The translations under genes and the position numbers were made by a program. DNA of 43,242 nucleotides from an uncultured Wenzhouxiangellaceae bacterium. Its GTDB lineage: Bacteria > Pseudomonadota > Gammaproteobacteria > Xanthomonadales > Wenzhouxiangellaceae. The DNA lies in NCBI GenBank assembly GCA_964534475.1, contig CAZHRH010000003.1, positions 1-43,242 on the forward strand. Direction: 5' to 3'. Positions 7,723 through 40,650 of this stretch are shown here, piece after piece (position 1 is the stretch's first letter; each line of letters starts with the position of its first letter). The notes below the pieces were generated by a model. It was not told where the DNA came from. It made no database searches and worked only from the letters and a program-made list of their open reading frames with translations.

Positions 7723-8979
<1,257 letters not shown>

Positions 8980-13489: not shown

Positions 13490-13567
13490 GGAAATGACCG
13501 TTGTGTGACAGCCATAGATTAGCTAAATAAGTCAGTCAATGACAAATCATATAAACTGATTCTTATC

Positions 13568-13587: not shown

Positions 13588-13652
13588 ATAGTGGCAGGCA
13601 TCAATTTTTCCTTATACGTTTATATCAATGGCCAAACCTTACGTTTATTCCA

Positions 13653-14561
13653 GTGTATAAAGGCAATTTACTCAAGCACTTACGTGCATTTACCCACACC
13701 GCATCCAGCGGCAGTGTATCTGCTGCGGCCAGGCAACTGTATCTGTCGCAGCCATCGGTGACACAGCAGATCCAGGCGCTGGAAGCTGAGCTGGGACAGG
13801 TCTTGTTTGAACGCCAGGGTCCGAAAATGCGCCTTACCCAGGCGGGAGAAACGCTGCGCGAAATTGCTGCGCCACTGGTGGCGCGGCTGGATGCGCTGCC
13901 AGATGAGTTTGCCGATGCCTATGGCCAGCTTGATAATGGTGAAATTCGCATCGCCGCCGGCGAATCGACTATCCTGCATTTGCTGCCGCCAATGGTGCGA
14001 CGATTTCGCAGCAAATACCCCGGCATTCGCGTGCAGTTGAAAAATGTCACCGGTGCCGACGGTCTGGGCATGCTGCGCGCTAACAAAGTGGATTTTGCCG
14101 TCGGCTCTATGCTGCAGGTGCCTGATGACGTTAAATATCGGCCGCTGTACAGCTACAAACCGATGCTGATATGTCCACTCAGGCATCCGCTCGGGCGCTT
14201 GCGGCACTTTGATCTGGCTGATATCAGCCCTTACGGCATGATTTTGCCACCCCAGCGGTTGACCACGTACGCACTGATTGACAAGGTGTTTCAGCAACAC
14301 AAGCTGCCGCTGCAGGTGACCATGGAAGTTGGCGGCTGGGAAATCATCAAGCGATACGTCGCTGCCGGCATGGGCATTTCCATAGTCACCAGCATCTGTC
14401 TTGCCGAACGCGATCGTCAGGAGCTTATCGTGCGCGATGTCAGCACGTGGTTCGCCGGCCGCAGTTATGGTCTGGTCACCCGGCGCAGTGCTTATCTGTC
14501 ACCGCAAGCCCGACGTTTTATCGACATGATGACAAGCATGCCCCAGGCTGCGACAATATAA
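13653..14561 (+). CDS. LysR-family transcriptional regulator
   Basis: It has an N-terminal wHTH (SVSAAARQLYLSQPSVTQQIQALE) and a C-terminal substrate-binding domain. It uses a GTG start and is divergent from aceBA. Confidence 0.85.
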   Translation: MYKGNLLKHLRAFTHTASSGSVSAAARQLYLSQPSVTQQIQALEAELGQVLFERQGPKMRLTQAGETLREIAAPLVARLDALPDEFADAYGQLDNGEIRIAAGESTILHLLPPMVRRFRSKYPGIRVQLKNVTGADGLGMLRANKVDFAVGSMLQVPDDVKYRPLYSYKPMLICPLRHPLGRLRHFDLADISPYGMILPPQRLTTYALIDKVFQQHKLPLQVTMEVGGWEIIKRYVAAGMGISIVTSICLAERDRQELIVRDVSTWFAGRSYGLVTRRSAYLSPQARRFIDMMTSMPQAATI

Positions 14562-14564: not shown

Positions 14565-15251
14565 ATGAGCTTGTCAGGCCCCATCGATCCCGCGCACTGT
14601 GCCAGTTTCGACATCGATTCGCAGCGCACCTTCACCCCGCTGTGTCCGCATGAATTGCCGGTGCCCGAAGGTGATCAGATCGCTGCTGAACTGAACGCAC
14701 AGGCGAAACTGGTGCGCTGGCGTCTGGGTTCGAAAGACGCGCATAACATGCAGGCGGTGTGGATCACCGATGATGCGGACAAGATCGGCCAACCCGGAGT
14801 GCCCGGCGACAACGTCGAGGAACACTGGCCGCCACATGCCATTGCCGGCAGCGAAGGTTTCAAACTGCTGCCGGGTCTGCCCCACCCCGCCACTTACGAT
14901 TTCTTCATCTGGAAAGGCGTGGAGCCGGACATGCATCCTTACGGCGCCTGTTATCACGATCTCGCCGAGACCATGAGCACCGGCGTTATCGAATGGCTCA
15001 AGGCACACAACATCAGCCATGTCGTTGCCGGCGGCCTGGCCACTGATTTCTGCGTCAAGGCCACCGTGTTGCAACTGCAGCGAGCCGGCTTGCAGGTATT
15101 GCTGAATCTCGCCGCCTGCCGCGGCATCGATACTGACAGCAGCGCGCAGGCAATCAATGACATGCGCGCGGCTGGCGTCAACTTGTTCACCGATGCCGCT
15201 GAACTTGGCACCAGGCTGAATGCAGCGGATAGCAATGGAGAAGCACGCTGA
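14565..15251 (+). CDS. pncA: Nicotinamidase / pyrazinamidase (isochorismatase fold)
   Basis: The motif GGLATDFCV carries the catalytic Cys, and an Asp lies in FDIDSQRTF. Its stop overlaps the pncB start. Confidence 0.85.
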   Translation: MSLSGPIDPAHCASFDIDSQRTFTPLCPHELPVPEGDQIAAELNAQAKLVRWRLGSKDAHNMQAVWITDDADKIGQPGVPGDNVEEHWPPHAIAGSEGFKLLPGLPHPATYDFFIWKGVEPDMHPYGACYHDLAETMSTGVIEWLKAHNISHVVAGGLATDFCVKATVLQLQRAGLQVLLNLAACRGIDTDSSAQAINDMRAAGVNLFTDAAELGTRLNAADSNGEAR

Positions 15252-16420
15252 TGATCATCGACTTCCTGCTCGACACCGACATTTACAAATACAGCATGAT
15301 GCAGGCGGTGCTGCACCAGTTCCCCGGTGCCGAAGTCGAGTATCAGTTCCGCTGCCGCACGCCGGATATCGATCTGCGACCGCTGAAACGCGAGCTGGAA
15401 CAAGAAATCGAGCACTTGTGTTCACTCAAGCTAGGGCCGGTCGAGCTGAACTTTCTCGCCAGCCAGCGCTACCTGAAAAACGATTTCATCGAGTTTCTGC
15501 GCCTGTTTCATCTGCAGTCGCGCTTTATCGAAATCAGCGAGCACAATGAAGAGCTGCAGTTGACCATCCGTGGTCCCTGGCTGCACACAATCCTGTTTGA
15601 AGTGCCGCTGCTGGCGATCATCAGCGAGTTGTATTACCGCCATCATCACCCACAGCACGAGTTTGCTGAAGGGCGGCGACGACTGCGGCAGAAGATCAAG
15701 CAGGTCAAGGCGCTGGATCGCGCCGATGAATTCGTGTTTGCCGATTTCGGCACCCGGCGACGCTTCTCCCGCGTCTGGCACGAGGAAGTGGTGGCGACCC
15801 TGGCCGCACAACTGCCGAACTCGTTGCGCGGCACCAGCAACGTGCGCCTGGCCATGCAGAATGAACTGGTGCCGATTGGCACCATGGCGCACGAGTTCAT
15901 CCAGGCCGCGCAGGCTTTGGGGCCACGACTGGCCGAGACGCAGCGCTTTGCGTTTGAAGTGTGGGCGCGCGAATATCGTGGCGATCTGGGCATCGCCCTG
16001 TCCGATACCTACAGCCTGAAAGCCTTCCTGCGTGATTTCGACATGTACTTCTGCAAGCTGTTTGACGGTGCGCGGCAGGATTCCGGCGACCCCATCGCCT
16101 GGGGCGAAGCAATGATCCAGCACTATCAGGACAACCGCGTCGATCCGAAAACCCGCAATCTGATCTTCTCGGATTCGCTCAACATCGACAAGGCCGCTGA
16201 AATCTGGCAAACCTTCCGTGATCGCATCAACGTGTCCTTCGGCATCGGCACCAACCTGAGCAACGACACCGGCGTCGAGCCGATCAACATCGTCATCAAA
16301 ATGACTGCCTGCAATGGGCAACCGGTGGTCAAGCTGTCTGACTCACCCGGCAAGGTCATCTCCACCGACCAGGAGTATCTGGCCTGGGTGCGCAATGCGT
16401 TTGATGTGCCTGAGGGTTGA
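15251..16420 (+). CDS. pncB: Nicotinate phosphoribosyltransferase
   Basis: The N-terminus LLDTDIYKYSMMQAV and GTMAHEF are typical of PncB. The length of about 389 aa fits. Confidence 0.92.
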   Translation: MIIDFLLDTDIYKYSMMQAVLHQFPGAEVEYQFRCRTPDIDLRPLKRELEQEIEHLCSLKLGPVELNFLASQRYLKNDFIEFLRLFHLQSRFIEISEHNEELQLTIRGPWLHTILFEVPLLAIISELYYRHHHPQHEFAEGRRRLRQKIKQVKALDRADEFVFADFGTRRRFSRVWHEEVVATLAAQLPNSLRGTSNVRLAMQNELVPIGTMAHEFIQAAQALGPRLAETQRFAFEVWAREYRGDLGIALSDTYSLKAFLRDFDMYFCKLFDGARQDSGDPIAWGEAMIQHYQDNRVDPKTRNLIFSDSLNIDKAAEIWQTFRDRINVSFGIGTNLSNDTGVEPINIVIKMTACNGQPVVKLSDSPGKVISTDQEYLAWVRNAFDVPEG

Positions 16421-16631
16421 ATCAAATTCAATCAAGCATCTGAACCAACATCGGTAACAGTACGACACAAGACCAGCCACAAGGCTGAATGCAGCGGAAC
16501 CAGAAGCCACATGAATTTCAAAGCGGTGAGGTATCTTCTCATGCTTCTACAGGATCCATTGAAGTGTTTAGGAACCTCTGATCAATTATACGCGGAGCGC
16601 GTTCAATTCAAACAGCTTTCCAAGCTTGTAT

Positions 16632-18008
16632 TCACCAGCGTGAATCAACCAGCAGCGGCGGTGGATATTCCTGCGGCGGTGTATCGGCTGTCCACGGCGA
16701 AAAGCGCTCTTTCGGCGGCAATCCTGCCAGCTCCGGGCACCAGTGGCTGATGTATGCTGCGTGTGGGTCGTAGCGGCGGGATTGTTCCACCACATTGAAC
16801 CAGCGTTCGCGAGTGTCGGTGCCGACGCCGGCCTGATAGGCCCAGTTGCCCCAGTTGCTGGCAACATCGTAATCCACCAGCAGATGCTCGAACCAGGCCG
16901 CGCCGGCACGCCAGTCCAGCAGCATGTCCTTGACCAGGAAGCTGGCCACGTTCTGCCGGCCGCGATTGGACATGTAGCCGCTGGCGTGCAGTTCGCGCAT
17001 GTTGGCGTCGATCATGGGAATGCCGGTTTCACCCTGCGTCCAGGCAGCAAACTGGTCTTGCTGGCGCTGGTCTAAATGGTCAAAGGCGCTCAGCCCGTCG
17101 ACGGGCTTGTCATGCAAGCCTGCAATGCGGAACAAAGCGCTGCCGGTGTGTTGCAGCAGCCAGCGGAAATACTCGCGCCAGAGCAGCTCGAATCTGAGCC
17201 AGTAGGTGGATTCGTTGACCGCGACTTCGCTTTCAAAGCGCTCGATTTCCGCCCACACATGGCGCACCGACAGGCAGCCATTGGCCAGCCATGGCGACAG
17301 CTTGCTGGAATCATCGGTCTGCAGCATGCCGTTACGGGTCTGTTTGTAGTCGAGGATGCATTGCGCATCGTGCAGATAATGCTGCAAGCGCTGCAGCCCG
17401 GCGTTTTCGCCACCGCTAAAGCGCGGCGGTTTGCTCTGCGCCTGCTGCAGAATTTCCGGCCAGTCTGGACAACTGCCCAGCAGCGGCTGCGGCAATGATT
17501 TGATGCCAGCCAGCGGCCCAAGCGGCTGCAAACGCTTCTCCACCTTGCGCCGGAACGCGCTGAAGCTCATCGGCCTGCGATCACTGGCAAACGGCATCTC
17601 ATCAAACAAGCGATTGTCGGCGGTCACGCTCACTGCTGCATCTGCTCCGAGCATCTGTTGCAGCGCACTTACCTGCCCGGCTTCCTCGGTGCCGGGAGCA
17701 TCCGCAACATACACCTGCTCAATGCCGTGCTCACGCACCAGCTTTGCGATCAGCGGCGGCGCATCGCCTTGCACCACCAGCAAGCGCTGACCGAGCTGGG
17801 CCAGGCGCTGCTGCAAGTCGCGCAATGATGCGGCCAGAAAGCGCCAGCGATGCGCATGCAGACGCGGCCAGCCCCAGTCGCTCTGCATCTGCAAGCCAGC
17901 ATCAATCACGTAAACCAGCAGCAGCCGATCGCATTCAGTTGCCGCCTGCAGCAGCGGATTGTCGTGCAGGCGCAGTTCACCGCGCAGCCAGACCAGACCA
18001 TGCGTCAT
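16632..18008 (-). CDS. Cryptochrome DASH / photolyase-family flavoprotein
   Basis: WLRGELRLHDNPLL lies at the N-terminus. The FAD-binding region carries the DASH-type motif DYDVASNWGNWAYQAGVGTD. Confidence 0.85.
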   Translation of the reverse strand: MTHGLVWLRGELRLHDNPLLQAATECDRLLLVYVIDAGLQMQSDWGWPRLHAHRWRFLAASLRDLQQRLAQLGQRLLVVQGDAPPLIAKLVREHGIEQVYVADAPGTEEAGQVSALQQMLGADAAVSVTADNRLFDEMPFASDRRPMSFSAFRRKVEKRLQPLGPLAGIKSLPQPLLGSCPDWPEILQQAQSKPPRFSGGENAGLQRLQHYLHDAQCILDYKQTRNGMLQTDDSSKLSPWLANGCLSVRHVWAEIERFESEVAVNESTYWLRFELLWREYFRWLLQHTGSALFRIAGLHDKPVDGLSAFDHLDQRQQDQFAAWTQGETGIPMIDANMRELHASGYMSNRGRQNVASFLVKDMLLDWRAGAAWFEHLLVDYDVASNWGNWAYQAGVGTDTRERWFNVVEQSRRYDPHAAYISHWCPELAGLPPKERFSPWTADTPPQEYPPPLLVDSRW

Positions 18009-19277: not shown

Positions 19278-21530
<2,253 letters not shown>

Positions 21531-24296: not shown

Positions 24297-24443
24297 AGCA
24301 CAGTCCTGACGATTGAGACAGTAATGATGAGCATGCCTTGGTGATGCTGCATTGTAAAGCATCATCCGCATGGCAGATTGCTACCATCTGCACTCAGATA
24401 ATGTGCATTCTAACGGCAGACAGTCCGCATGTAACACCCGCAT

Positions 24444-24733
24444 TCAAGCCGCGCGCATGCGCTGGCGATCCAGCGCCTGCTGCAGATCGGCAATGATGTC
24501 CGCCGGGGTTTCCAGTCCCACAGAAAACCGCACCAGACCATCGCTGATGCCGTGTGCGGCGCGTTCTGCGACCGAATAGGTTGAGAGTGTGTCATGCTGG
24601 CCGGATGCTGTATCAGGCTTTCAGCGTCACCCAGCGAGACCGCGCGCTGCACCAGTTGCAGTGCGTTCATGAATTGCATGCCTGCGGCCATGCCGCCGTG
24701 CAGCTCGAGCGCGCTTGCGTATGGCATGGTCAT
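24444..24733 (-). pseudogene. C-terminal remnant of a Cys/Met-metabolism PLP enzyme (homoserine sulfhydrylase / cystathionine gamma-synthase family), 5'-truncated and frameshifted
   Basis: One frame reads [44 protein letters not shown] second frame continues [46 protein letters not shown]. Together these form the conserved C-terminal quarter of the family. The roughly 290 N-terminal residues are absent, and repeats begin just upstream. Confidence 0.75.
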
Positions 24734-24779
24734 GCATGCGCGGTCGTTTCCGGCGTGAGCTCGGGATCGACTTTTATTG

Positions 24780-24915
24780 ATCCACAGATTACGCAGATTA
24801 CACAGAAATGATGCAGAGATTAGCCGGTTGCTCCCGGTCTTACCCTGTCTGTCAGGCTTGCCTGGTGGCTTGCTGCGAGATGAACCAATCTGTGTAATCG
24901 GTGCAATCTGTGGAT
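24780..24915. mobile_element. MITE-like element, copy 1 (136 bp, 26-bp terminal inverted repeats)
   Basis: The left end is ATCCACAGATTACGCAGATTACACAG. The right end is CTGTGTAATCGGTGCAATCTGTGGAT. The ends match at 23/26 positions when reverse-complemented. The element has no coding capacity, and a near-identical second copy lies 387 bp away. Confidence 0.6.
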
Positions 24916-25031
24916 TTACTCCTGCTAGATGCGGATTTTATGCAACCACAGGATTCACATGGCATAGCCTTGAGTGATAGCAGGTTTGCCTATCGCATGG
25001 TCGTGCATGCTCGGTCGTTCCCCCACCCCAG

Positions 25032-25055: not shown

Positions 25056-25166
25056 AGTTTCCCAGCCGCTGTTGTATTGATCAATATCCTGCTCGCTCCT
25101 TACGACCTTCGATTTCATCGAAGTGGCAGAATCAGTGCAATCTGTGGTTTATCTATTGTTTTATTG

Positions 25167-25306
25167 ATCCACAGATTACGCAGATTACACAGCAATAATG
25201 CCGAGATTTGCCGCTTGCTCCCGGTCTTACCCGGCCTACCTGTCAGGCTTGCCTGGTGGCTTGCTGCAAGATGAACCAATCTGTGTCATCGGTGCAATCT
25301 GTGGAT
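25167..25306. mobile_element. MITE-like element, copy 2 (140 bp)
   Basis: The left TIR is the same as in copy 1. The right TIR is CTGTGTCATCGGTGCAATCTGTGGAT, matching at 22/26 positions. The interior aligns with copy 1 at most positions, with one 4-nt indel. A solo right-end fragment (aatcagtgcaatctgtgg) lies at 25130-25148. Confidence 0.6.
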
Positions 25307-25324
25307 TTTTATCTTTATACGTTA

Positions 25325-27034
25325 TCAGGGAATAATCCAGTCGGTTACAGCAGCAATATAGTCGGGTTGCTGATCAGCCGGTTTGACGATGTAGCCACCT
25401 TTTGACAGGTAGCGCTGATCCGGCCCAAGCGACAAGCGCGGGTACAAGCCGGGATTCTTGCTGCCCTCGACTTCGTGTTCGATCAGTTCAAGAAAGTAAT
25501 CACGATGAAAGTTGTTGAAGATGTGACGCATGGCGTCGAACACGATCATCATGCCGTAATGCGCCTTGAAGTGCAGGCGCTGATCAATGACTTCCAGCCC
25601 GCGCGAATTCATCCAGCCCTGTATGCGGTAGGTTTCCGGATAATAGCCGCTGGCCAGCGCGCGCGGATAGGTGAAGTAGACCTGGTCGGCCAGATCAGTG
25701 GCGAGCAGCGTTTGCGCGGCGCCGGCGGCGGCTTGTGGCAGCAGCAGTCGGACCTCACCAAGATCCTGCTGAGACAGTACCTGCAGCAGCGCATCTGCGT
25801 TGGAATCCGGCCAGATGACAAGCGTGTCAGCCGCCCGTATCCGTTCCAGATTAGCATTGACGAAGGCGGTCAGATCAACTCCAGCAGGATACTGCTGCAG
25901 TTTCTGCAGTTTGATCTGATCATGCTCACGCAGCAGTTCACGGAAGTAATCCGCCGGAATCCTGCCGCGATCACTGGCGGCATGCCAGACCAGGACATCA
26001 TGTCGCTTGTCCGGTGGCGGTGTGCTGAGGTAATCCAGCATCAGTTCCGCTTCCAGATACAGGCCACGGTCGTAATACACCGTGTATTGGCCTTCGGCAT
26101 CGACAATGGCCGGAAAGTCGGTGATCGGCAATATACATGGTATGCCTTCATCGTTGCAGAATTGAGCGATCGGTGACCAGCTTCCCACCACCATGCCGTT
26201 AATCAGTGCGAAGGCCGGTTGCTTGTCCTGTTTCGCTTCCAGTTGCGCGCGCCAGGTGGAGGCATCACCTTGCAGCCGCCATGGGTGCAACTTCAGCTTG
26301 CGCAGCCAGTCACGCACATCGGCGCCGTCATACGGAAAAAACTGATTCATGCGCTGATCGCCGCCGATGCGCTCATTCATCCAGGTGACAAAGGCGTCCA
26401 TGGTGGCCAGCACCGCATCGACTCGCTGCGCGTCAACTTCCGGTCCGATCACCACTGCGTAATGAATGTGCGTATCGTCCACTCCCGGGGATTTATCAGC
26501 AGACAGGGTCTGCAAATAGGCATACAGATTGGCCATGTCACGCTCATCGAGCTGATAGCGCGGCATCAGATCCTGAAAACGGTTGTCGCCGGGATCAACC
26601 CCGGTGGCCATTGCCGTGTGCAGTGTTTCCATGGTGTAGGCCGGGCGTATACGCGGTGAACGCACATAGGCGCTCTGGCGCGCCGATTGTGGATCAATGA
26701 ACAGCGCGCGGTAGCGATCACTGCGTTGCATGCGGCGTGGCTCGAACAAATAGTTGGCAGTGATGGGTGGAATGTAATAGCCGCCTTCACTGGCACCAAA
26801 GCCGCTGCGTCGATGACATCTGGTGCAGGCAAAATCGCCGCCTGATAGCTCAATATCACCCTGCCCCAGCGCCGTGATCGGCGCGCCAGCGTGTCCGATG
26901 CCCTGTTCATATATGCGTTTGCCGAGTTCAGCATTTCCTGCCGTACTTTCTTCCGCCGGCAGCGGAAAAACAATCAGGCCGCAAAAAAGAACTGCCGTGG
27001 TGAACACGGCAGTCCGAAGCTTTGTATTGGTCAT
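25325..27034 (-). CDS. Secreted fusion protein: N-terminal monohaem cytochrome c domain plus C-terminal type-1 periplasmic binding-protein (LivK-like) domain
   Basis: It has a signal peptide (MTNTKLRTAVFTTAVLFCGLIVFPLPA). A single CTRCH haem motif is followed by a class I-like C-terminal helix (DLMPRY...MANLYAYLQTL). The remaining roughly 390 aa show an alternating beta-alpha pattern resembling PBP1 solute-binding proteins (ALINGMVVGSWSPIAQFCNDEGIPCILP). Confidence 0.7.
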   Translation of the reverse strand: MTNTKLRTAVFTTAVLFCGLIVFPLPAEESTAGNAELGKRIYEQGIGHAGAPITALGQGDIELSGGDFACTRCHRRSGFGASEGGYYIPPITANYLFEPRRMQRSDRYRALFIDPQSARQSAYVRSPRIRPAYTMETLHTAMATGVDPGDNRFQDLMPRYQLDERDMANLYAYLQTLSADKSPGVDDTHIHYAVVIGPEVDAQRVDAVLATMDAFVTWMNERIGGDQRMNQFFPYDGADVRDWLRKLKLHPWRLQGDASTWRAQLEAKQDKQPAFALINGMVVGSWSPIAQFCNDEGIPCILPITDFPAIVDAEGQYTVYYDRGLYLEAELMLDYLSTPPPDKRHDVLVWHAASDRGRIPADYFRELLREHDQIKLQKLQQYPAGVDLTAFVNANLERIRAADTLVIWPDSNADALLQVLSQQDLGEVRLLLPQAAAGAAQTLLATDLADQVYFTYPRALASGYYPETYRIQGWMNSRGLEVIDQRLHFKAHYGMMIVFDAMRHIFNNFHRDYFLELIEHEVEGSKNPGLYPRLSLGPDQRYLSKGGYIVKPADQQPDYIAAVTDWIIP

Positions 27035-27045
27035 GATTTAATCGC

Positions 27046-27699
27046 TCAGCGGCTGGCCATGGCTGCTTGCTGCGCCAGGCGCTTGGCACGCTGGTACTCG
27101 CTGGCAATGGCTTTGCCGGTCATCATGCCGTCAAAGCGCAGCCATTCATTACTGTCATCCACGCGCATCAACGTGATCGGCTGATGATTCATTTTGTTGC
27201 CGCCTTCATAGACCGAGTCCACAGCCTGCAGCAATGCATGGATGGCATCGACTTCACCAGTGAGAAAATGCACTTTGGAGCCGGTTTCAAAACGCTCGGC
27301 ATAACTGCTCAGACGTTCCGGCGTGTCGTACTCCGGATCCAGCGACACCAGATAAATGGCGTAATCCGGATCAATCGGATCAAGACCTTTGGTGGCGCTG
27401 GCCATGGTCGCCGATATCATCGGACAGACACCGGCACAGGAGGTAAATACAAAGCTGACGATGGCAGATTCCTGCACTGCAAATAGCTCGGCGACATTGA
27501 CCTGATCGCCATGGGCGGTGGTCAACATGACCTGCGGAACTTCATAGGCATGTGAACTGCGCACGTAGGACTGGTGTTTTTTTGCCTTGGCAGGCTGAGC
27601 GTTATCGGCAGTCTCCACGGCAAAACCCTCATTGGCGGTAAGCAACAACACCACCAGCACCCATGCCAGTATTTTGATTGTAGAAGTAAGTATGTTCAT
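27046..27699 (-). CDS. SCO1/SenC-family copper chaperone (thioredoxin fold, CxxxC)
   Basis: FVFTSCAGVCP carries the CxxxC motif. SLDPEYDTPERLSSYAERF and a downstream His (NHQPITL) are present. It has an N-terminal signal/anchor (MNILTSTIKILAWVLVVLLLTA). The ATG at 27699 has an AGGAAG RBS, whereas the track start (TTG at 27756) has none. Confidence 0.85.
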   Translation of the reverse strand: MNILTSTIKILAWVLVVLLLTANEGFAVETADNAQPAKAKKHQSYVRSSHAYEVPQVMLTTAHGDQVNVAELFAVQESAIVSFVFTSCAGVCPMISATMASATKGLDPIDPDYAIYLVSLDPEYDTPERLSSYAERFETGSKVHFLTGEVDAIHALLQAVDSVYEGGNKMNHQPITLMRVDDSNEWLRFDGMMTGKAIASEYQRAKRLAQQAAMASR

Positions 27700-27756
27700 A
27701 GCTTCCTGTATGTTTTTGCTGTTTTTATGGTTATGTTTATGGTGTTCAGTGGACAA

Positions 27757-27784
27757 TGAAACTGCCGCGCCAGTGGCGCGGCAG
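27757..27784 (-). terminator. Strong GC hairpin (11-bp arms) followed by a TTTCATTG tract, between the orphan gene and SCO1
   Basis: CTGCCGCGCCA-G-TGGCGCGGCAG at 27762-27784 lies 13 nt after the orphan gene stop codon. On the minus strand it is followed by TTTCATTG. It could act as a partial terminator/attenuator or as an mRNA-stabilising stem. Confidence 0.45.
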
Positions 27785-27797
27785 CAGGGAAATCAGA

Positions 27798-29759
27798 TCA
27801 GTGGACTGACCAGATATTCATATCATGGTGCAGCGGATCGAACTGATACATGGTGATACGCTGCGACGGCTCGTAATTGAAGTTCAAAATGACGTTATGC
27901 ACACCAAGACCTCCCTCATCACCGTCTGCTGTCAATTTACCGGGTGCCACACCCAGCGCCTGAGCGCTGGCAGCACGAAGCAGTGAAGCATCCGGCGTCT
28001 TGCGCGTTGTGGTATTGCGCACATCCAGCCAGCTCGGCGTCAGGTGATAGTTCTGCGCCTCGCCTTTGCTGTTCAGCACCGGAAGATTCTCGGAACGACC
28101 CGGTCCACCGAGGATGGCCAGTGTCTCTTCAATGGTCATACCCGGTGAGCCATCCGGCAGCGGCGCTGGCGGCACCATGGGCGGCATGGGAATCTGTGGC
28201 CACCAGTGTACGCGGCCGAAGGTGAACCAGGGGCCGGCGCCGCCTATGGGGATGGTGTTCTGGAAGGTGTTTTCCCAGCCGCGCATGCCGCCGAAGTCGA
28301 CCATCTGGTAAGCATGTACGAAATGGTCAGCATTCAGCAGCTTAACCTTGATCTGGTCACCGCGCTTGCGGAATGGAACCAGCTTTTCATTGTCCCGCAC
28401 CGAGCCTTTGACATTGCCATACAGGGTATTGTTGGCAAACAACAGGGTCATGTCGTCATCCGGATCAGCCTGAATGCCGGACGGGAGTCTGATCTTGTTC
28501 TGCCAGTCATCAAAGGCTGCCTCGAATGCGGCAACGTCAGCCGCACCCACGGCACCACCGGCGTCACGCATTTCGCGCAGGATATTCCACATGCGTTTGG
28601 CCGGAGCAATGTCACCAATCATGGCGATGGCTGCCAGTTTGTTTTCTTCGCTGGCAGTGGGTTCCGGACCGAACACAATGCTTTCCCATTCAGGACGCGG
28701 CATGCCGCCAGCCGGGATCAGGGCATTTTCGATCACCTGCACACGCGGAGGATGGATGCGCCAACCCCAGAAGTAGGTCAGGTTCCACATGCGTCCAGGC
28801 TGCATCTGCATTTCGAACGTGGTACGGGTACCGTCTTCCATCGGGAAGAAGGTTGTATCCATGGCCACATGCGGTGCCGGAGCGCCGAGTACTGCCGGAT
28901 CATCAAAAACCATATTAAATGGTGCGAAATCTTCATGCCCACGGTTTAGCGTGTCGGCATGCACCACCATGGTCCAGGGCACGTCGAGCACCGGTGTCGG
29001 GTCGATGTAGGAAGTGTCGGACATGATGCGCTGATCAAACCAGACCTGATGCACTTCGATGCGACCACCGATCACATTGCCATCGGCATCGAGCTCCAGT
29101 TCGAAGTCTCCCGGTCCACGCACCTTGTCTGGTCCGTTGTAGTGCAGCATCGGCATACCGGAATAGGCACGATCAATGTCATTGCCTTCCATGATGTCGA
29201 TAGCAAACTGAATATCCGCAGCACTCACAGACTGACCGCTTTCAATGGCTGTCTGCATGTTCTTCAGAATGCCGCGCAGATCGTCGGTCGGCGACAGTGG
29301 ATTGATTTCCGATACCACCGGATCCGGATGCAGGTTGTATGGATCTTCCGGTGTCGATGGCAATGTATTCGGAATTTCCGCACCACCGGTAGCTGTGGCA
29401 TTTTCATACACAGTTGGACACAGATTGGTCGGAATATCATCGTCCGCGCTGGATGGCGCGAAGAACGACTCCGGAGTGGTGATGGTTGATGTCATGCCGT
29501 CGTCACTGGTAACGATGGTGCTTGGTGCTGCCGGACGCGGCCGCACACCAGGGTGTCCCGGGCAGGCGTCAGCCGAAACCTCTGGTGGGAAAGTGCCTGT
29601 GCCTGGTGGCGGTACCACAGGTAAGCCGCAACCCGGGATAGTGATACCCAACAATATTTGCAGCAGCTCACATCCGGCACCACCTTGATTGGCGGGTTGC
29701 GCTTGCGCTTGCTGCCAGGCAAATCCGCAGACTAGCATTGCTGTGATGATTTTTTTCAT
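27798..29759 (-). CDS. Orphan secreted protein (about 650 aa), no family recognised
   Basis: The long ORF has coding-like composition. A Sec signal MKKIITAMLVCGFAWQQAQA precedes QP. The ATG at 29759 has a GAGAG upstream. Alternative coupled starts (GTG at 29816, ATG at 29813) overlap the upstream stop. I recognise no motif from any characterised family. Confidence 0.7.
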   Translation of the reverse strand: MKKIITAMLVCGFAWQQAQAQPANQGGAGCELLQILLGITIPGCGLPVVPPPGTGTFPPEVSADACPGHPGVRPRPAAPSTIVTSDDGMTSTITTPESFFAPSSADDDIPTNLCPTVYENATATGGAEIPNTLPSTPEDPYNLHPDPVVSEINPLSPTDDLRGILKNMQTAIESGQSVSAADIQFAIDIMEGNDIDRAYSGMPMLHYNGPDKVRGPGDFELELDADGNVIGGRIEVHQVWFDQRIMSDTSYIDPTPVLDVPWTMVVHADTLNRGHEDFAPFNMVFDDPAVLGAPAPHVAMDTTFFPMEDGTRTTFEMQMQPGRMWNLTYFWGWRIHPPRVQVIENALIPAGGMPRPEWESIVFGPEPTASEENKLAAIAMIGDIAPAKRMWNILREMRDAGGAVGAADVAAFEAAFDDWQNKIRLPSGIQADPDDDMTLLFANNTLYGNVKGSVRDNEKLVPFRKRGDQIKVKLLNADHFVHAYQMVDFGGMRGWENTFQNTIPIGGAGPWFTFGRVHWWPQIPMPPMVPPAPLPDGSPGMTIEETLAILGGPGRSENLPVLNSKGEAQNYHLTPSWLDVRNTTTRKTPDASLLRAASAQALGVAPGKLTADGDEGGLGVHNVILNFNYEPSQRITMYQFDPLHHDMNIWSVH

Positions 29760-29812
29760 GACTTTGGCTCTCGTTTGTTTTAGTTTTAAGTTGTCAGGGC
29801 TGTAATTCTTCA

Positions 29813-30592
29813 TCACACCCTCCCCGGCTCAGCGTTGTCATAAATTGCGCCCTGCGTGTTCAGCCGCCGTGGGCCGGCCTGGCGCATCTGTGCCTGTGTT
29901 GGCACAGCTCTGGGTATGACCGATGCAATCCGCCGGCGCGACAATTCCAGATCCTGATACATGGAACCGACTGTGGCCCATAAACCAGACGCTGCATTGC
30001 CGTAGTGGATCAGATCAGCATCCAACTTGCGATGCGGTCTGCCCTCGGCACGATACAGTTTCAACCCAAGAGCAACCACGGAATCGGCATCGGCAGTGAG
30101 GAAACGCCAGCCTTCCGGAGCATCAAACTGCTTCGCGAACTCGGCCAGTCGCTCCGGCGTATCGTTGTTGGAGTCATAGCTGATGGAAAAGACATGCAGG
30201 TCCTTGCCGATCTTGTCGGCAAAGGAATGTACCAGTCTTGCTACCTGTGCTGTTACCGGATAATCGGCTTCTGCCTCGATTGACATGAAGTTGATCATCA
30301 CCACCCGATCCTGAATCAGATCAGCAAAAAATCGATGCTGCTGATTCTCGTGATCGGTGACGGTGACGTCAGGGAACCTGGCGGCGGCAACCCGACGCAG
30401 AGTGTCCTCGCTGCACTGCTGGATGTCCATCTCACCGGCGCGACCGAAGGCCAACGCCGGTAAAGTGGCTGCTGCCACCGCTGCTGGTAGTGATGCCAGC
30501 AACTTGCGGCGTGCTGAAGTCGCCCTGCTGGCTTTGGCGTCAGGTGCTGCCGGCTCGGTATCGACTTTAATTGTTGCATTGCTCTGAGTCAT
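29813..30592 (-). CDS. Tat-signal SCO-fold protein lacking the CxxxC copper-binding motif
   Basis: It has a twin-arginine motif (SARRKLLASLPAAVAAATLPALAFG). SCO-like blocks are present (ISYDSNNDTPERLAEFAKQF, WRFLTADADSV). The position of F-x-x-C-x-x-x-C-P reads FMSIEAEADYP. The ATG at 30592 lies 2 nt after the MCO stop. Confidence 0.7.
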   Translation of the reverse strand: MTQSNATIKVDTEPAAPDAKASRATSARRKLLASLPAAVAAATLPALAFGRAGEMDIQQCSEDTLRRVAAARFPDVTVTDHENQQHRFFADLIQDRVVMINFMSIEAEADYPVTAQVARLVHSFADKIGKDLHVFSISYDSNNDTPERLAEFAKQFDAPEGWRFLTADADSVVALGLKLYRAEGRPHRKLDADLIHYGNAASGLWATVGSMYQDLELSRRRIASVIPRAVPTQAQMRQAGPRRLNTQGAIYDNAEPGRV

Positions 30593-30594
30593 GA

Positions 30595-32394
30595 TCAGTC
30601 CCCCTGTCCCGGCGGAACCATCTTCCACTGAATCATCATTTCATGATCTTCGTGCACCACATTGTGACAATGCATCACATGAGTGCCGAAGAAATCACGC
30701 CAGCGACCGAAGAACTTGTATTCCTGATTTGGACCGAGCTCAATGATGTCTTTGCGCGCACGCAGGAAGCTGTCTTCAGCGATTGGTTTGCCGTTGAACT
30801 CGATGTACTGGAATTCCTCAAAGTGGGTATGCACCGGGTGACTCCAGGTGTTGCCGGAGTTACGTATGGTCCAGACTTCTGCAGAACCCTGCTCGATCAA
30901 TGCATCGATGCGGTTGGGGTCCATGACTTTACCGTTCACAGTCCACTGGCCGTTGTCATAGTCGAACACCCAGAGACGTTCGCGGCGCACTTCATCCATA
31001 TTGATGCTGGGGAATTCTCGCAAGCGATCCGGAATCTGGCTGGGGTCACCAACATCGGGATTCTGCGGTATGACGTCGTAGCGCATGACCAGATCGCCTT
31101 CATCCTTGATTTTGCCGGACTCACCAGCACCATCGGGGCGCATTTCCAGACGATTGACCAGATACACCTTGTCACCAGGCTCAAAGGCGGAGAAATCCAC
31201 CACCACATCAACCCGGTTGGCCACCCACAGCGGGAAGCTTTCCATTTCCAGCGGTTCCTGCAGCATGTTGCCATCGTTGGTCATGACATAAAATTTCAAA
31301 CCTGGGTGGTTATCGCTGACCGTGCCATCGGCACGCTCCAGACGCAGGCTGAGCTGATACAGCCGCGATGGTCCGCCATTGAGCAGTCGGAAGCGATATT
31401 TGCGCGCTTCCACATCCAGCCGTGGCGAAATGGTTCGGTTGACAGTAATGCGGTCACCGAGCATGCCGAACAGGGTGAAATTGGAACTGCCGATGTAAGT
31501 CGTTTCGGAGTCTTCAGGCTCGACTCTCGGACCCAGTCCACCATCGAAAAAGTCGAACACCACCTGACCGTTCTGATCAAACTGCACGTCATGCAGGATC
31601 ATCGGAATATCGTAGTCACCACTGGGCAGACGGAACGCATCCGGATTGGGATCGTTTTCGTCGTCGGAATCAAGATCGTCGAACAGCAGGTAAAAACCGG
31701 ACAGGCCGGCGTAGACGTTCGGCGCGGTGAAATCCAGGCGGTGATCGTGATACCAAAGGGTATTCATGATCTCGGTGTTGTCGAAACCGGCCGGAAAGTT
31801 GCCGTAATGGTGATCCCAGAACTCACCCGAGTTGAAGAAGTCGGTCGGGATACCATCGCTCTCAGAGGCGGTGTGGCCATTGTGCAGGTGCACAGTGATG
31901 GATGGCAACGCAAACTGAACCTTGACATCTGGATCCCCCACCGGCGGCAGGTTGTTCAATCTGCGCACCAGCACCGGCTCGCCATAGCGCACTTTGTAAG
32001 TCGGACCGGGCGCATGGAACAATCCTGCAGCATCATTCTGCCAGCCCCAGTGCCAGGAACCCTGCGCATAGGGGCCTTCGCTGTGATAAACCCAGCGATT
32101 CTGCACGATGTTTTCCTTGTAGAAATCAACCGGCGGAAAATCATAAAAGCGTTGATGACGGCGTCCGTCGGGTAACGGGCTGAAGCTGTTGAGAGGTTCC
32201 GGCGTTGCTACTGGCATGCGGAAAAGTGGATCTTTGAAAGGTACGATGGGTGGACTGGGTGCAGCTTCTATTGAAGGTTTGAAGCCTTGTGGAAAAACCA
32301 GACCGCTTTGGCGAAACTCAACTTTGCCATGTGCGGTCGCAGCCATGCCACCCGCAGCCAATCCCAGCTTGAGGACATCTCTTCGGTTAGTCAT
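30595..32394 (-). CDS. Tat-exported three-domain multicopper oxidase (CotA / bilirubin-oxidase-like)
   Basis: It has a Tat signal (MTNRRDVLKLGLAAGGMAATAHG). All four copper-ligand motifs are present: HLHNGH, WYHDH, HPVHTH, and HCHNVVHEDHEM (HCH-x3-H-x4-M, axial Met). Confidence 0.92.
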   Translation of the reverse strand: MTNRRDVLKLGLAAGGMAATAHGKVEFRQSGLVFPQGFKPSIEAAPSPPIVPFKDPLFRMPVATPEPLNSFSPLPDGRRHQRFYDFPPVDFYKENIVQNRWVYHSEGPYAQGSWHWGWQNDAAGLFHAPGPTYKVRYGEPVLVRRLNNLPPVGDPDVKVQFALPSITVHLHNGHTASESDGIPTDFFNSGEFWDHHYGNFPAGFDNTEIMNTLWYHDHRLDFTAPNVYAGLSGFYLLFDDLDSDDENDPNPDAFRLPSGDYDIPMILHDVQFDQNGQVVFDFFDGGLGPRVEPEDSETTYIGSSNFTLFGMLGDRITVNRTISPRLDVEARKYRFRLLNGGPSRLYQLSLRLERADGTVSDNHPGLKFYVMTNDGNMLQEPLEMESFPLWVANRVDVVVDFSAFEPGDKVYLVNRLEMRPDGAGESGKIKDEGDLVMRYDVIPQNPDVGDPSQIPDRLREFPSINMDEVRRERLWVFDYDNGQWTVNGKVMDPNRIDALIEQGSAEVWTIRNSGNTWSHPVHTHFEEFQYIEFNGKPIAEDSFLRARKDIIELGPNQEYKFFGRWRDFFGTHVMHCHNVVHEDHEMMIQWKMVPPGQGD

Positions 32395-32744
32395 ATTGTG
32401 CTCCGGCGTTTTTATTATGGTTCAAATTAATTCTTATTGTGGTAAACAGCCCAAAACCATCTTTGGCAGGATTTAACCAGTGATGTGGGCAACCGGTTCC
32501 TGCTTCCGGGTCTTCAGATCTGCTTAACCCTCTTACAAAATATAAGACCGGGCACACGCAGTCAAGTCAAATTGACAATAATACTTTAGATTTGTATTAG
32601 CTAATTTAGTTATTCACAATTCATATGCGGAATGCTTTTGTTAATTGACGGAGTAAAGAATCAGCTTGCGGTTATGGCGCTTGAAGTAATAAAATTATAT
32701 TCAGTGGTCCATGCCAAGAGCTAATGACACCTGACGTAGCCCGT

Positions 32745-32831
32745 GCCGGGGTGGCGGAACTGGTAGACGCGCTGGATTCAAAATCCAGTTTTGGAAACAA
32801 AGTGAGGGTTCGATTCCCTCCCCCGGCACCA
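32745..32831 (+). tRNA. tRNA-Leu (anticodon CAA), class II with long variable arm, CCA encoded
   Basis: I folded it by hand. Acceptor stem GCCGGGG/CCCCGGC. Anticodon stem CTGGA/TCCAG with loop TTCAAAA. Long variable arm. T arm GAGGG-TTCGATT-CCCTC. Discriminator A followed by CCA. Confidence 0.9.
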
Positions 32832-40461: not shown

Positions 40462-40650
40462 GATGTCCTCTGCGAGGTTCGCCAGCCGGAACAATGATGC
40501 CTTGTCCCTATTCATCGACCTCGGGAAGACAGACTGTCCTCGGTGTGCATGTTCGCCCTGGAGCGAAAAGCCTGATGATGGCACGACGTCAACCCACCTG
40601 AGCCTTTGGTTCAAGGTCACGTCCCGGCAGCGGCTTCCGCGGAGGATCAT
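40462..40650 (+). ncRNA. ssrS: 6S RNA
   Basis: It lies between zapA and ygfA. The 5' end UCCUCUGCGAGGUUCGCCAGCCGG pairs with the 3' end CCGGCAGCGGCUUCCGCGGAGGA to form the closing stem. A conserved GGUUCAAGG element is present. The ends are approximate (+/-5 nt). Confidence 0.8.

What the first reader, a model, noticed from the sequence alone, without database searches (positions are those of the whole stretch)
25325..32394. Five-gene exported copper/haem cluster: MCO, Cys-less SCO, orphan 650-aa protein, SCO1, cytochrome c-PBP fusion
Seen in the sequence:
- Five co-directional minus-strand genes are packed with operon-like spacing. The MCO stop lies 2 nt from the SCO-like ATG.
- The SCO-like stop overlaps the alternative orphan starts at 29816/29813.
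- The SCO1 stop lies 11 nt from the cytochrome c-PBP start.
- Every product has an export signal: two twin-arginine and three Sec-type.

Established knowledge:
- The MCO has all four canonical Cu-ligand motifs.
- SCO1/SenC proteins are periplasmic copper insertases.
- CxxCH marks covalent haem c.

Inference:
- The combination does not match the MCO systems I can recall: CueO, PcoAB/CopAB, CotA, MnxDEFG, MofABC, ncgABC-nirK.
- It adds a ligand-binding PBP domain wired to a haem, two SCO-fold proteins (one degenerate), and a large protein of no known family.
- A plausible reading is a periplasmic oxidation module. A small-molecule-binding haem protein, the orphan protein, or both would feed electrons to the MCO T1 copper and on to O2, with dedicated copper-loading factors.
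- The flanks (pseudogene and MITEs on one side, tRNA on the other) suggest accessory DNA.
Basis: partly seen in the sequence, partly recalled or inferred. Interest (0 to 1): 0.88.

Follow-up and report, generated by a model that had tools for sequence, protein, structure and literature searches.

The report
Iodide-oxidase (ioxABCDE) copper enzyme gene cluster
The five genes are a new copy, in an uncultured gammaproteobacterium, of the iox cluster already known from iodide-oxidising bacteria: an exported copper oxidase (IoxA), its partner protein (IoxC) and copper-loading helpers.

Summary
There are five co-directional minus-strand genes at the stated coordinates, with the stated junctions, signal peptides and motifs.

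The novelty claim is not supported. The set matches, gene for gene and in order, the ioxABCDE(F) cluster of Iodidimonas and Roseovarius. Their secreted iodide-oxidising enzyme (IOX) was purified as IoxA (a multicopper oxidase, MCO) plus IoxC (PMC9415286).
- The "orphan" is IoxC. It has more than 750 homologues.
- In 79 genome loci from several phyla, A-B lies directly upstream of C in 68 of 68 testable loci. D-E lies directly downstream in 64 of 70.

This analysis adds:
- IoxE is a c-type cytochrome fused to a LivK-type periplasmic binding fold.
- IoxB is a SCO paralogue that lacks CxxxC in all 74 sequences examined.
- Gene fusions pair B with C and D with E.
- A strong hairpin directly after ioxC is conserved in position but not in sequence (83% of loci against 13% of coding controls). 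It splits the cluster into a core (ABC) and a maturation module (DE).
- Every IoxC ends in HH-x7-H-COOH.
- The IoxC model weakly resembles cupredoxin domains.

Iodide as the substrate in this organism is inferred, not shown. Verdict: a new member of a known kind, of modest interest.

The parts
30595..32394 (-). ioxA: Tat-exported three-domain multicopper oxidase (599 aa), the catalytic subunit
   Evidence: ORF. Pfam Cu-oxidase_2 and a TAT signal. All four Cu motifs are at least 99% conserved in 70 homologues. 59% identical to the first gene of the Iodidimonas muriae iox cluster, L042. The nearest solved structures are bilirubin oxidase and CotA, E about 1e-72.
29813..30592 (-). ioxB: SCO-fold paralogue without the CxxxC copper site, with an RR (Tat-like) signal
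   Evidence: Weak Pfam SCO1 hit below the cut-off. hhalign against the IoxD profile gives probability 99.2%, E 2.4e-19, with CxxxC replaced by MSIxxExxxP. CxxxC is absent in all 74 homologues, including Iodidimonas. An RR motif is present in at least 57 of 73. Fused to IoxC in P0165, P0187 and L083.
27798..29816 (-). ioxC: roughly 70-kDa Sec-exported partner subunit of the oxidase; its fold is not in Pfam or PDB. Possible starts are GTG 29816, ATG 29813 and ATG 29759
   Evidence: 759 or more homologues, all annotated as hypothetical. 47% identical to the I. muriae ioxC position. No Pfam, NCBIfam or PDB sequence match. AF2 model pLDDT 79.9, pTM 0.80. Foldseek top hits are all MCO or nitrite-reductase cupredoxin proteins, but weak. 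The C-terminal HH-x7-H-COOH motif is present in 79 of 79.
27761..27785 (-). GC-rich hairpin 12 nt after the ioxC stop (11 pairs, about -23 kcal/mol, tail UUCAUUGU); a likely internal terminator, attenuator or transcript-stabilising stem-loop
   Evidence: Top terminator-like site in the region. An equivalent hairpin of -18 kcal/mol or stronger follows ioxC in 83% of 78 loci. The figure is 13% for random coding windows, 8% after ioxA and 50% after ioxE. 54% of the strong hairpins are followed by at least 4 U in 8 nt.
27046..27699 (-). ioxD: canonical SCO1/SenC copper chaperone with an N-terminal anchor or signal (the ORF can extend to TTG 27756)
   Evidence: Pfam SCO1-SenC, E 2.7e-17. C107/C111/H191 are 100% conserved. 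Matches B. subtilis Sco, 1on4, E 5e-8. An AGGAAG Shine-Dalgarno sequence lies before ATG 27699.
25325..27034 (-). ioxE: class-I c-type cytochrome domain fused to a type-I (LivJ/LivK-like) periplasmic binding-protein fold
   Evidence: Pfam Cytochrom_C. Invariant CxxCH and MP. AF2 pLDDT 84.8. Foldseek against 3lkb gives E 6e-14, probability 1.00, TM 0.71 on the target. SCO::IoxE fusions occur in P0141, P0144, P0147, P0151 and L083.
32537..32565 (-). Candidate sigma-70-type promoter upstream of ioxA (TTGACT-17-TATTTT); a consensus match only
   Evidence: Such sites are no more frequent here than in shuffled sequence, so this is weak.

Best explanation
The region is an ioxABCDE gene cluster. It is homologous, gene for gene, to the cluster that encodes the secreted iodide-oxidising multicopper oxidase (IOX) of Iodidimonas and Roseovarius.

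Proposed roles:
- IoxA is a Tat-exported three-domain laccase-type oxidase. It takes single electrons from the substrate at its type-1 copper and reduces O2 to water at the trinuclear copper cluster.
- IoxC is a Sec-exported protein of about 70 kDa and the obligate partner subunit. I infer that it is built from degenerate cupredoxin-like beta-sandwiches. I also infer that it carries an extra His-based metal site at its invariant C-terminal HH-x7-H-COOH motif. This may be the zinc reported in purified IOX.
- IoxB is a Cys-less SCO-fold protein tied to IoxC, most likely as an assembly factor or third subunit.
- IoxD (canonical SCO1) and IoxE (cytochrome c fused to a binding-protein fold) form a separate copper-delivery and redox maturation module for the oxidase.

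A conserved hairpin after ioxC probably lets ioxABC be expressed at a higher level than ioxDE.

The most likely reaction is 4 I- + O2 + 4 H+ -> 2 I2 + 2 H2O, with side activity on phenolics.

Shown here: homology, conserved gene order, motifs, folds, gene fusions and hairpin conservation. Inferred: the substrate in this organism, the A-C complex, the metal site in IoxC, the roles of B, D and E, and the function of the hairpin.
For: Gene-for-gene match:
- The I. muriae locus L042 carries A (59% identity), B (38%), C (47%), D (35%) and E (35%) in the same order.
- L042 also has ioxF (SCO1) downstream and gspE/gspF upstream. This is as drawn for the iox cluster in PMC9415286.
- The same order is found in about 17 Roseovarius loci.

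Co-occurrence: A-B lies upstream of C in 68 of 68 loci. D-E lies downstream in 64 of 70.

Literature:
- IOX purified from Q-1 and A-2 contains IoxA and IoxC, Cu and Zn. It is extracellular and uses O2.
- The review already notes IoxA relatives in Gammaproteobacteria and Nitrospirae.

Motifs and folds.

Module structure:
- B::C and D::E fusions, both present in L083.
- ABC-only loci, and an ABC-only second copy in L030.
- The hairpin after ioxC.
- The SCO plus cytochrome-PBP pair also sits beside another MCO, together with PCuAC, a TlpA-like redoxin, CusRS and CusF, in L080. The P. putida mnxG operon is annotated with the same kit.

IoxC:
- Foldseek hits with E of 1e-3 or lower are all MCO or nitrite-reductase cupredoxin proteins.
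- The C-terminal motif is present in 79 of 79 sequences.
Against: - No activity data exist for this organism or for any gammaproteobacterial member.
- IoxA is only 55-60% identical to the two enzymes with demonstrated activity, and MCOs are promiscuous.
- The family occurs in habitats not known to be iodide-rich: methanotrophs, Nitrosomonas, Acidobacteriota and Nitrospirota.
- ioxF and the flanking type II secretion genes of Iodidimonas are absent from the window.
- The cupredoxin reading of IoxC rests on weak Foldseek matches (TM on the query 0.11-0.15, rmsd about 18 A). A profile-profile comparison with IoxA found nothing.
- I could not read model coordinates, so clustering of the conserved histidines was not tested.
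- The hairpin's function was not tested. Its U-tract in the window is poor.
Confidence: 0.8

Rival explanations
1. The hardware is the same (an IoxA-IoxC oxidase with maturation factors), but the physiological substrate here is not iodide. It could be Mn(II), Fe(II), Cu(I), phenolic or aromatic amine compounds, or a nitrogen intermediate. Iodide oxidation would then be a side activity that happens to be exploited in brine bacteria.
For: - Purified IOX oxidises ABTS, syringaldazine, 2,6-dimethoxyphenol, p-phenylenediamine and hydroquinone as well as iodide.
- The family is found in soil and freshwater methanotrophs, Nitrosomonas, Nitrospirota, Acidobacteriota and Myxococcota.
- The SCO-SCO-cytochrome/PBP kit is annotated in the Mn-oxidase mnxG operon of P. 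putida GB-1.
- The closest solved relatives are broad-specificity laccases, CotA and bilirubin oxidase.
Against: - The only biochemically characterised members (Q-1, A-2) have high catalytic efficiency for iodide.
- Many loci come from known iodide oxidisers (Roseovarius, Iodidimonas).
- Nitrosomonas sp. Nm51 carries the full cluster. It is one of the two ammonia oxidisers reported to oxidise iodide.
Confidence: 0.3
2. One reading: a periplasmic respiratory-type oxidation module. The ligand-binding haem protein (IoxE), the large unknown protein (IoxC), or both would collect electrons from a small molecule and pass them to the MCO type-1 copper.
For: - IoxE has a redox-active haem c domain and a ligand-binding fold.
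- All five proteins are exported.
- IoxC does associate with IoxA.
Against: - IoxE is fused to SCO, not to the MCO or IoxC, in at least five lineages.
- IoxE pairs with SCO next to unrelated copper-handling genes.
- IoxE is missing from ABC-only loci.
- IoxE lies beyond a conserved hairpin.
- IOX is an extracellular enzyme identified as at least IoxA and IoxC that acts directly on iodide with O2.
Confidence: 0.07
3. A copper-homeostasis or resistance system of the CueO or PcoA/CopA type, that is, a cuprous oxidase with chaperones.
For: The system combines an MCO with copper chaperones. NCBIfam gives partial matches to the CueO and CopA models.
Against: - The scores are far below the curated cut-offs: CueO 111 against 525 bits, CopA 20.8 against 479.
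- No cop, cus or pco genes or copper-sensing regulators are in the window.
- IoxC has no counterpart in those systems.
Confidence: 0.05

Closest known systems
ioxABCDEF cluster and IOX enzyme of Iodidimonas sp. Q-1 / I. muriae and Roseovarius sp. A-2 (Suzuki et al. 2012; Shiroyama et al. 2015; review PMC9415286)
   Same: - Same five genes in the same order and orientation.
- IoxA has four Cu motifs.
- IoxC lies between two SCO paralogues, followed by IoxE.
- Identity to I. muriae is 59% (A), 38% (B), 47% (C), 35% (D) and 35% (E).
   Different: - No ioxF. Among 64 loci it is found only in Iodidimonas and two Sphingomonadales loci.
- No flanking type II secretion genes.
- The host is an uncultured gammaproteobacterium.
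- Activity is untested.
Pseudomonas putida GB-1 mnxG operon (Mn(II) oxidase; PMC11409713, Table 4)
   Same: An MCO gene followed by two SCO1/SenC genes and a gene annotated as a substrate-binding protein with a cytochrome c domain. The maturation kit therefore appears to be shared.
   Different: - The MCO there is the much larger MnxG.
- The second gene is a YVTN beta-propeller protein, not IoxC.
- A SurA-domain gene follows.
- The gene order differs.
- Similarity was judged from annotation only.
Bacillus Mnx complex (MnxG with the accessory subunits MnxE and MnxF; PMC5622069)
   Same: An MCO that functions only as a multi-subunit complex with non-MCO partner proteins encoded in the same operon. 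This comparison rests on my own knowledge of the system plus the paper's title and abstract.
   Different: The partners are small (about 12 kDa) and unrelated to IoxC. The substrate is Mn(II). There are no SCO or cytochrome-PBP genes.
CotA laccase and bilirubin oxidase (closest solved structures to IoxA)
   Same: A three-cupredoxin-domain MCO with a Met axial ligand at the type-1 site. Profile E is about 1e-72.
   Different: Both are single-subunit enzymes with no IoxC-like partner. IoxA has a Tat signal and an N-terminal extension of about 100 residues.
Sco / PCuAC / TlpA pathway for CuA assembly in cytochrome oxidase
   Same: IoxD keeps CxxxC...H. In L080 the SCO plus cytochrome-PBP pair sits with PCuAC and a TlpA-like redoxin.
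   Different: The presumed client is a multicopper oxidase, not cytochrome oxidase. The redox partner is a haem c-PBP fusion. IoxB has lost the copper site.

Membership tests
iox gene cluster (IOX, iodide-oxidising MCO system) | [quoted passage not shown] | tested here: met
   Motifs at H169/H171, H216/H218, H519/H522/H524 and H575-C576-H577/H581/M586. 59% identical to I. muriae IoxA.
iox gene cluster (IOX, iodide-oxidising MCO system) | An ioxC homologue (about 71 kDa, no known domain) encoded close downstream of ioxA in the same orientation | tested here: met
   47% identical to the I. muriae ioxC position. Family search E = 0. A-B-C is linked in 68 of 68 loci.
iox gene cluster (IOX, iodide-oxidising MCO system) | SCO1/SenC homologues ioxB and ioxD flanking ioxC, followed by ioxE | tested here: met
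   The order A-B-C-D-E is identical to L042.
iox gene cluster (IOX, iodide-oxidising MCO system) | A third SCO1 gene, ioxF, after ioxE | tested here: not met
   tblastn with I. muriae IoxF finds only ioxD in the window. IoxF follows ioxE in only 3 of 64 loci, so it is a lineage-specific addition rather than a core feature.
iox gene cluster (IOX, iodide-oxidising MCO system) | Extracellular enzyme that oxidises iodide to I2 with O2, with IoxA and IoxC co-purifying | not testable with these tools
   This needs an enzyme assay and purification. The literature shows it only for Q-1 and A-2.
SCO1/SenC copper chaperones | CxxxC plus a distal His copper site on a thioredoxin fold (IoxD) | tested here: met
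   C107, C111 and H191 are 100% conserved. Pfam E 2.7e-17. PDB Sco hits.
SCO1/SenC copper chaperones | CxxxC plus a distal His copper site (IoxB) | tested here: not met
   IoxB is homologous in fold (hhalign probability 99.2%). CxxxC is replaced in all 74 sequences, and no Cys, His or Met is conserved. IoxB is therefore a SCO-fold paralogue, not a functional SCO.
Class I c-type cytochromes (IoxE N-terminal domain) | CxxCH haem attachment and a distal Met ligand | tested here: met
   C70, C73, H74 and M157-P158 are invariant in 24 sequences. Pfam Cytochrom_C scores above its cut-off.
Type I periplasmic binding proteins, LivJ/LivK-like (IoxE C-terminal domain) | Two-lobe Rossmann-like binding-protein fold | tested here: met
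   Foldseek: 777 PDB hits with E of 1e-3 or lower, and the top ones are all LivJ/K-type SBPs. 3lkb gives E 6e-14, TM 0.71 on the target. By sequence, only a sub-threshold Peripla_BP_6 hit is seen in the I. muriae homologue. The ligand is unknown.
Cupredoxin / MCO-domain superfamily (IoxC) | Greek-key beta-sandwich domains superposable on cupredoxin domains; copper ligands | tested here: inconclusive
   All 26 Foldseek hits with E of 1e-3 or lower are MCOs or Cu nitrite reductases. However, TM on the query is only 0.09-0.15. hhalign against IoxA found nothing. There is no Pfam hit. No conserved Cys is present.
CueO / PcoA / CopA copper-resistance oxidases | Score above the curated NCBIfam cut-offs; cop, pco or cus gene context | tested here: not met
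   111 against 525 bits for CueO, and 20.8 against 479 for CopA. No such neighbours are present.
P. putida-type mnxG Mn-oxidase operon | Very large MnxG-type MCO followed by a YVTN beta-propeller protein | tested here: not met
   The window's MCO is 599 aa with three domains. No beta-propeller gene is present. Only the SCO/SCO/cytochrome-PBP kit is shared, judged from annotation.

The most novel reading that the evidence does not exclude
IoxC would be a previously unrecognised kind of MCO partner: a degenerate, Cys-less cupredoxin-like protein. Its invariant C-terminal HH-x7-H-COOH motif sits where a cupredoxin type-1 ligand loop would be. It would form an extra His-ligated Zn or Cu site that the oxidase needs.

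The system as a whole would be a bipartite operon: ioxA plus ioxB·C, then an internal terminator, then ioxD·E. It is spread across nitrifiers, methanotrophs and other phyla.

In that reading, the complete cluster in Nitrosomonas sp. Nm51 would be the enzyme behind the iodide oxidation reported for ammonia oxidisers. That would link nitrifier ecology to marine iodate renewal.
Probability: 0.25. Interest if true: 0.6.

Novelty: new member of a known kind. Interest (0 to 1): 0.3.

Why it matters
As a discovery, this is a re-finding of the iox cluster, so it changes little. It still has some value in four respects.

- The roles of IoxB, C, D, E and F are described as still unclear in the literature (PMC9415286). 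This comparison gives testable structure to the system: an invariable ABC core, a separable D·E copper-delivery and redox module supported by gene fusions, a conserved internal hairpin, and a strict C-terminal His motif in IoxC.
- The SCO plus cytochrome c-PBP pair appears to be a general maturation module for periplasmic multicopper oxidases. It occurs with iox, in the P. putida mnxG operon by annotation, and in L080. How MCOs are metallated in the periplasm is poorly understood.
- A 2025 paper states that it is unknown whether ammonia oxidisers carry the whole iox operon (PMC12335899). The Nitrosomonas sp. Nm51 locus does. Nm51 is one of the strains reported to oxidise iodide to iodate.
- IOX is of applied interest as an iodine-generating biocide and for dye decolourisation. 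New divergent members widen the enzyme panel.

Tried and rejected
- Pfam and NCBIfam on IoxC alone, and Pfam on all 27 aligned IoxC members at E up to 1: nothing.
- PDB sequence-profile search with IoxC: nothing.
- Profile-profile comparison of IoxC with IoxA, to test for a hidden MCO relationship: probability 0.5%, rejected at the sequence level.
- Exhaustive profile search of 1.84 billion representative proteins with IoxC. The family is small: 291 clusters.
  - The distant relatives carry an IoxC-like N-terminal region fused to beta-propeller domains.
  - The one context examined (P0274) had no MCO link, so this lead was dropped.
- Plasmid search for IoxC, to test mobility: no match.
- Suzuki et al. 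2012 (PMC3346402) could not be read because it is not held. The biochemistry is therefore cited from the 2022 review.
- My first idea was that the cluster was a P. putida McoA or MnxG-type Mn-oxidase operon. It was downgraded to 'shares the accessory kit' once the IoxC homologues led to Iodidimonas and Roseovarius.
- Genomic-island reading: rejected as unsupported.
- No multimer prediction tool was available.

Full report

Yes.
- 30595-32394 (599 aa)
- 29813-30628 (259 aa from the ATG at 30592)
- 27798-29816 (672 aa)
- 27046-27756 (236 aa)
- 25325-27034 (569 aa)

The oxidase TGA is followed by 2 nt and then an ATG. The second gene's TGA overlaps GTG/ATG of the third gene (GTGATG) behind a GGGAGG ribosome-binding site. 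Between the fourth and fifth genes there are 11 nt.

It is different from the others. About 98 nt separate the stop at 27798 from the likeliest start of the fourth gene (ATG 27699, preceded by AGGAAG). This gap holds an 11-bp GC-rich hairpin at 27785-27761, the best terminator-like site in the region.

Domain scans give:
- Cu-oxidase_2 plus a TAT signal for gene 1
- a sub-threshold SCO1 hit for gene 2
- nothing for gene 3
- SCO1 for gene 4
- Cytochrom_C for gene 5

tRNA-Leu(caa) lies at 32745-32831.

**2. What is it?**

The "orphan" is not an orphan. A protein search returned 759 or more homologues. A scan of one genome per species found 186 loci, of which 79 were fetched. They include Iodidimonas muriae and about 17 Roseovarius genomes. 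These are the two groups of known iodide-oxidising bacteria.

The 2022 review of Iodidimonas (PMC9415286) describes the ioxABCDEF cluster:
- ioxA is a multicopper oxidase (62 kDa).
- ioxC (71 kDa) has an unclear function.
- ioxB, ioxD and ioxF are SCO1/SenC homologues.
- ioxE has an unclear function.

The secreted iodide-oxidising enzyme purified from strain Q-1 and from Roseovarius A-2 contains IoxA and IoxC. It contains Cu and Zn, absorbs at 320 and 590 nm, and uses O2.

I ran tblastn with the five window proteins against the 79 loci. In I. muriae (L042) the five homologues lie in the same order, with identities of 59%, 38%, 47%, 35% and 35%. That locus also has a sixth gene, a canonical SCO1 (ioxF), and gspE/gspF upstream. 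This matches the review's Figure 4. I. muriae C-3 is one of the four genomes the review lists.

The window cluster is therefore ioxABCDE. The review also notes that IoxA relatives occur in Gammaproteobacteria and Nitrospirae, so this host range is not new either.

**3. Co-conservation**

- Among loci with enough flanking DNA, A and B lie directly upstream of C in 68 of 68.
- D and E lie directly downstream in 64 of 70.
- The exceptions are three Acidobacteriota loci, a Phycisphaerae locus, a Thioalkalispiraceae locus, and the second copy in Ferruginivarius sediminum. That genome has ABCDE followed by a second ABC.
- In the Pyrinomonadales locus the neighbours are a two-component regulator and ketoacyl synthases.
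- ioxF follows ioxE in only 3 of 64 loci.

The invariable core is therefore ABC. DE is a frequent second module, and F is lineage-specific.

**4. The individual proteins**

*IoxA*
- The four copper motifs are at least 99% conserved across 70 sequences.
- The twin-arginine motif is essentially universal.
- The nearest solved structures are bilirubin oxidase and CotA (E about 1e-72). IoxA is therefore a three-domain laccase-type oxidase with a Met axial ligand.
- NCBIfam matches to PhsA, CueO, FtsP and CopA are far below their cut-offs.

*IoxD*
- C107, C111 and H191 are invariant.
- It matches Bacillus Sco.

*IoxB*
- It is clearly a SCO paralogue. hhalign against the IoxD profile gives probability 99.2%, E 2.4e-19.
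- CxxxC is replaced by MSIxxExxxP in all 74 sequences, including Iodidimonas. No Cys, His or Met is conserved.
- Most copies carry an RR motif.

*IoxE*
- CxxCH and an MP motif are invariant.
- The AlphaFold model has pLDDT 84.8.
- It matches LivJ/LivK-type binding proteins with probability 1.00. Against 3lkb: E 6e-14, TM 0.71 on the target.
- The cytochrome c-PBP fusion is confirmed. This gives IoxE a structural description that the literature I could read lacks.

*IoxC*
- It has no Pfam, NCBIfam or PDB sequence match.
- The family is small: 291 clusters among 1.84 billion representative proteins.
- The AlphaFold model (pLDDT 79.9, pTM 0.80) has two beta-sandwich regions separated by a helical segment.
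- All 26 Foldseek hits with E of 1e-3 or lower are multicopper oxidases or copper nitrite reductases. The superpositions are poor, with TM on the query of 0.09-0.15.
- Profile comparison with IoxA finds nothing.
- I therefore treat "cupredoxin-like" as a lead, not a result.
- Invariant residues include H163, H355, H663, H664 and H672.
- All 79 sequences end in HH[DEN]-x5-S-x-H, with His as the very last residue. The model places this motif between the last two strands. That is where a cupredoxin carries its type-1 ligand loop.
- Together with the zinc reported in purified IOX, this suggests an extra His-ligated metal site. This is inference. I could not inspect the model coordinates.

**5. How the parts are wired**

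Three independent observations divide the cluster into A plus B·C and D·E.

(a) *Gene fusions.* P0141, P0144, P0147 and P0151 are SCO(CxxxC)::cytochrome-PBP proteins. P0165 and P0187 are IoxB::IoxC proteins. One metagenomic locus, L083, has just three genes: MCO, B::C and SCO::E.

(b) *ABC-only loci*, and the ABC-only duplicate copy (section 3).

(c) *A hairpin directly after ioxC*, conserved in position and strength but not in sequence. The fraction of loci with a hairpin of -18 kcal/mol or stronger in a 90-nt window:

| Position | Fraction |
|---|---|
| After ioxC | 83% of 78 loci |
| After ioxA | 8% |
| After ioxB | 19% |
| After ioxD | 41% |
| After ioxE | 50% |
| Random coding windows | 13% |

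 The median distance from the stop codon is 18 nt. Of the strong hairpins, 54% are followed by at least 4 U in 8 nt, against a T frequency of 0.21.

The simplest reading is an internal terminator, attenuator or 3' stabiliser. It would let the enzyme genes be expressed above the maturation genes. In the window the U-tract is weak (UUCAUUGU), so read-through into ioxDE is plausible.

The SCO plus cytochrome-PBP pair also occurs outside iox. In L080 it follows a TlpA-like redoxin. It sits beside another 607-aa MCO, PCuAC, a second SCO, CusRS, CusF and DUF411. [quoted passage not shown]

I therefore favour IoxD·E as a copper-delivery and redox module for periplasmic multicopper oxidases.

**6. Context and the 'accessory DNA' idea**

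The window is ordinary chromosome:
- On one side: fadE, fadBA, serS, isocitrate lyase, malate synthase, pncA/B, photolyase, katG, an aldehyde dehydrogenase and an FMN reductase.
- On the other side: tRNA-Leu, cysK, an EamA transporter, ubiH-like genes, pepP, 6S RNA and 5-FTHF cyclo-ligase.

Both flanks are collinear with a related MAG, L001, at 74-86% nucleotide identity, including the same tRNA-Leu.

Downstream of ioxE, L001 has an Lrp-type regulator and an intact 406-aa PLP enzyme. The window keeps only the last 100 or so codons of that enzyme (24410-24733) and has two MITE-like elements instead. The rearrangement is therefore next to the cluster, not the cause of its presence.

G+C is unremarkable. 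No IoxC is found on plasmids in PLSDB. The patchy distribution across phyla implies old horizontal transfer, but nothing marks this copy as a recent island.

**7. Verdict**

- It is wrong on novelty, and probably wrong on the role of the haem-PBP protein.
- The cluster is a new member of a known kind.
- That it oxidises iodide in this organism is an inference from 55-60% identity plus a conserved partner and gene order. A different physiological substrate remains a serious possibility, at about 0.3.
- The residual interest lies in the unexplained partner IoxC, the Cys-less IoxB, the SCO-cytochrome-PBP module and the conserved internal hairpin. It also lies in the side observation that Nitrosomonas sp. 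Nm51 carries the complete cluster. Nm51 is a strain reported to oxidise iodide to iodate, and a 2025 paper left this point open (PMC12335899).

Noticed in passing
L011 (Nitrosomonas sp. Nm51) 7299-14449: Nitrosomonas sp. Nm51 carries a complete ioxABCDE cluster (A 66%, B 51%, C 46%, D 47%, E 40% identity to the window). Nm51 is one of the two ammonia oxidisers reported to oxidise iodide to iodate. [quoted passage not shown]
   Followed up: partly
window 24772-24917 and 25159-25308: Two copies (91-95% identical) of a MITE-like element of about 146 nt with 27-nt terminal inverted repeats (ATCCACAGATTACGCAGATTACACAGA). They lie directly downstream of ioxE. A further partial end sits at 25130-25150.
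   Followed up: partly
window 24410-24733 (-): A remnant (about the last 100 codons, then out of frame) of a Cys/Met-metabolism PLP enzyme. The related MAG L001 has the intact 406-aa gene (15538-16758) plus an Lrp/AsnC regulator (14956-15441) at this position. The window has therefore lost about 1.3 kb next to the MITEs.
   Followed up: yes
window 26989-27015 (-): A second terminator-like hairpin (11 pairs, followed by TTTTTTGCGG) lies inside the first 45 nt of the ioxE coding sequence, in the signal-peptide region. It could be chance or an attenuator. Conservation was not examined.
   Followed up: no
L083 3725-10548: A three-gene version of the system on a metagenomic contig: MCO (621 aa), an IoxB::IoxC fusion (804 aa) and a SCO::cytochrome-PBP fusion (838 aa).
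   Followed up: partly
L030 (Ferruginivarius sediminum) 1-11779; L048/L049 (BD1-7 clade bacterium): Ferruginivarius has ioxABCDE immediately followed by a second ioxABC without DE. The BD1-7 genome has two copies of the cluster on different contigs, with identical tblastn coordinates and identities.
   Followed up: no
L080 6906-13530: The SCO1 plus cytochrome c-PBP gene pair (4-nt overlap) occurs without ioxC. It lies next to a TlpA-like redoxin, PCuAC, another SCO1, a convergent 607-aa MCO, CusRS, CusF and DUF411. This looks like a general copper-handling neighbourhood.
   Followed up: partly
P0274, P0275, P0279 (representative library): Distant relatives (E about 1e-25) of the N-terminal and central part of IoxC are fused to six-bladed beta-propeller (Vgb_lyase/SGL) and Ig-like domains, in proteins of 970-1630 aa. 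The one context examined had no MCO. The P. putida mnxG operon has a beta-propeller protein where iox has IoxC.
   Followed up: partly
window 40464-40649 (+): 6S RNA (ssrS; Rfam 92 bits) lies immediately upstream of, and slightly overlapping, the longest-ORF start of the 5-formyltetrahydrofolate cyclo-ligase gene. This is the usual gammaproteobacterial arrangement.
   Followed up: yes
window 19284-21530 (+): A catalase-peroxidase (katG-type, 748 aa) lies about 4 kb from the iox cluster. It is probably coincidental. Peroxidases were once proposed for bacterial iodide oxidation.
   Followed up: no
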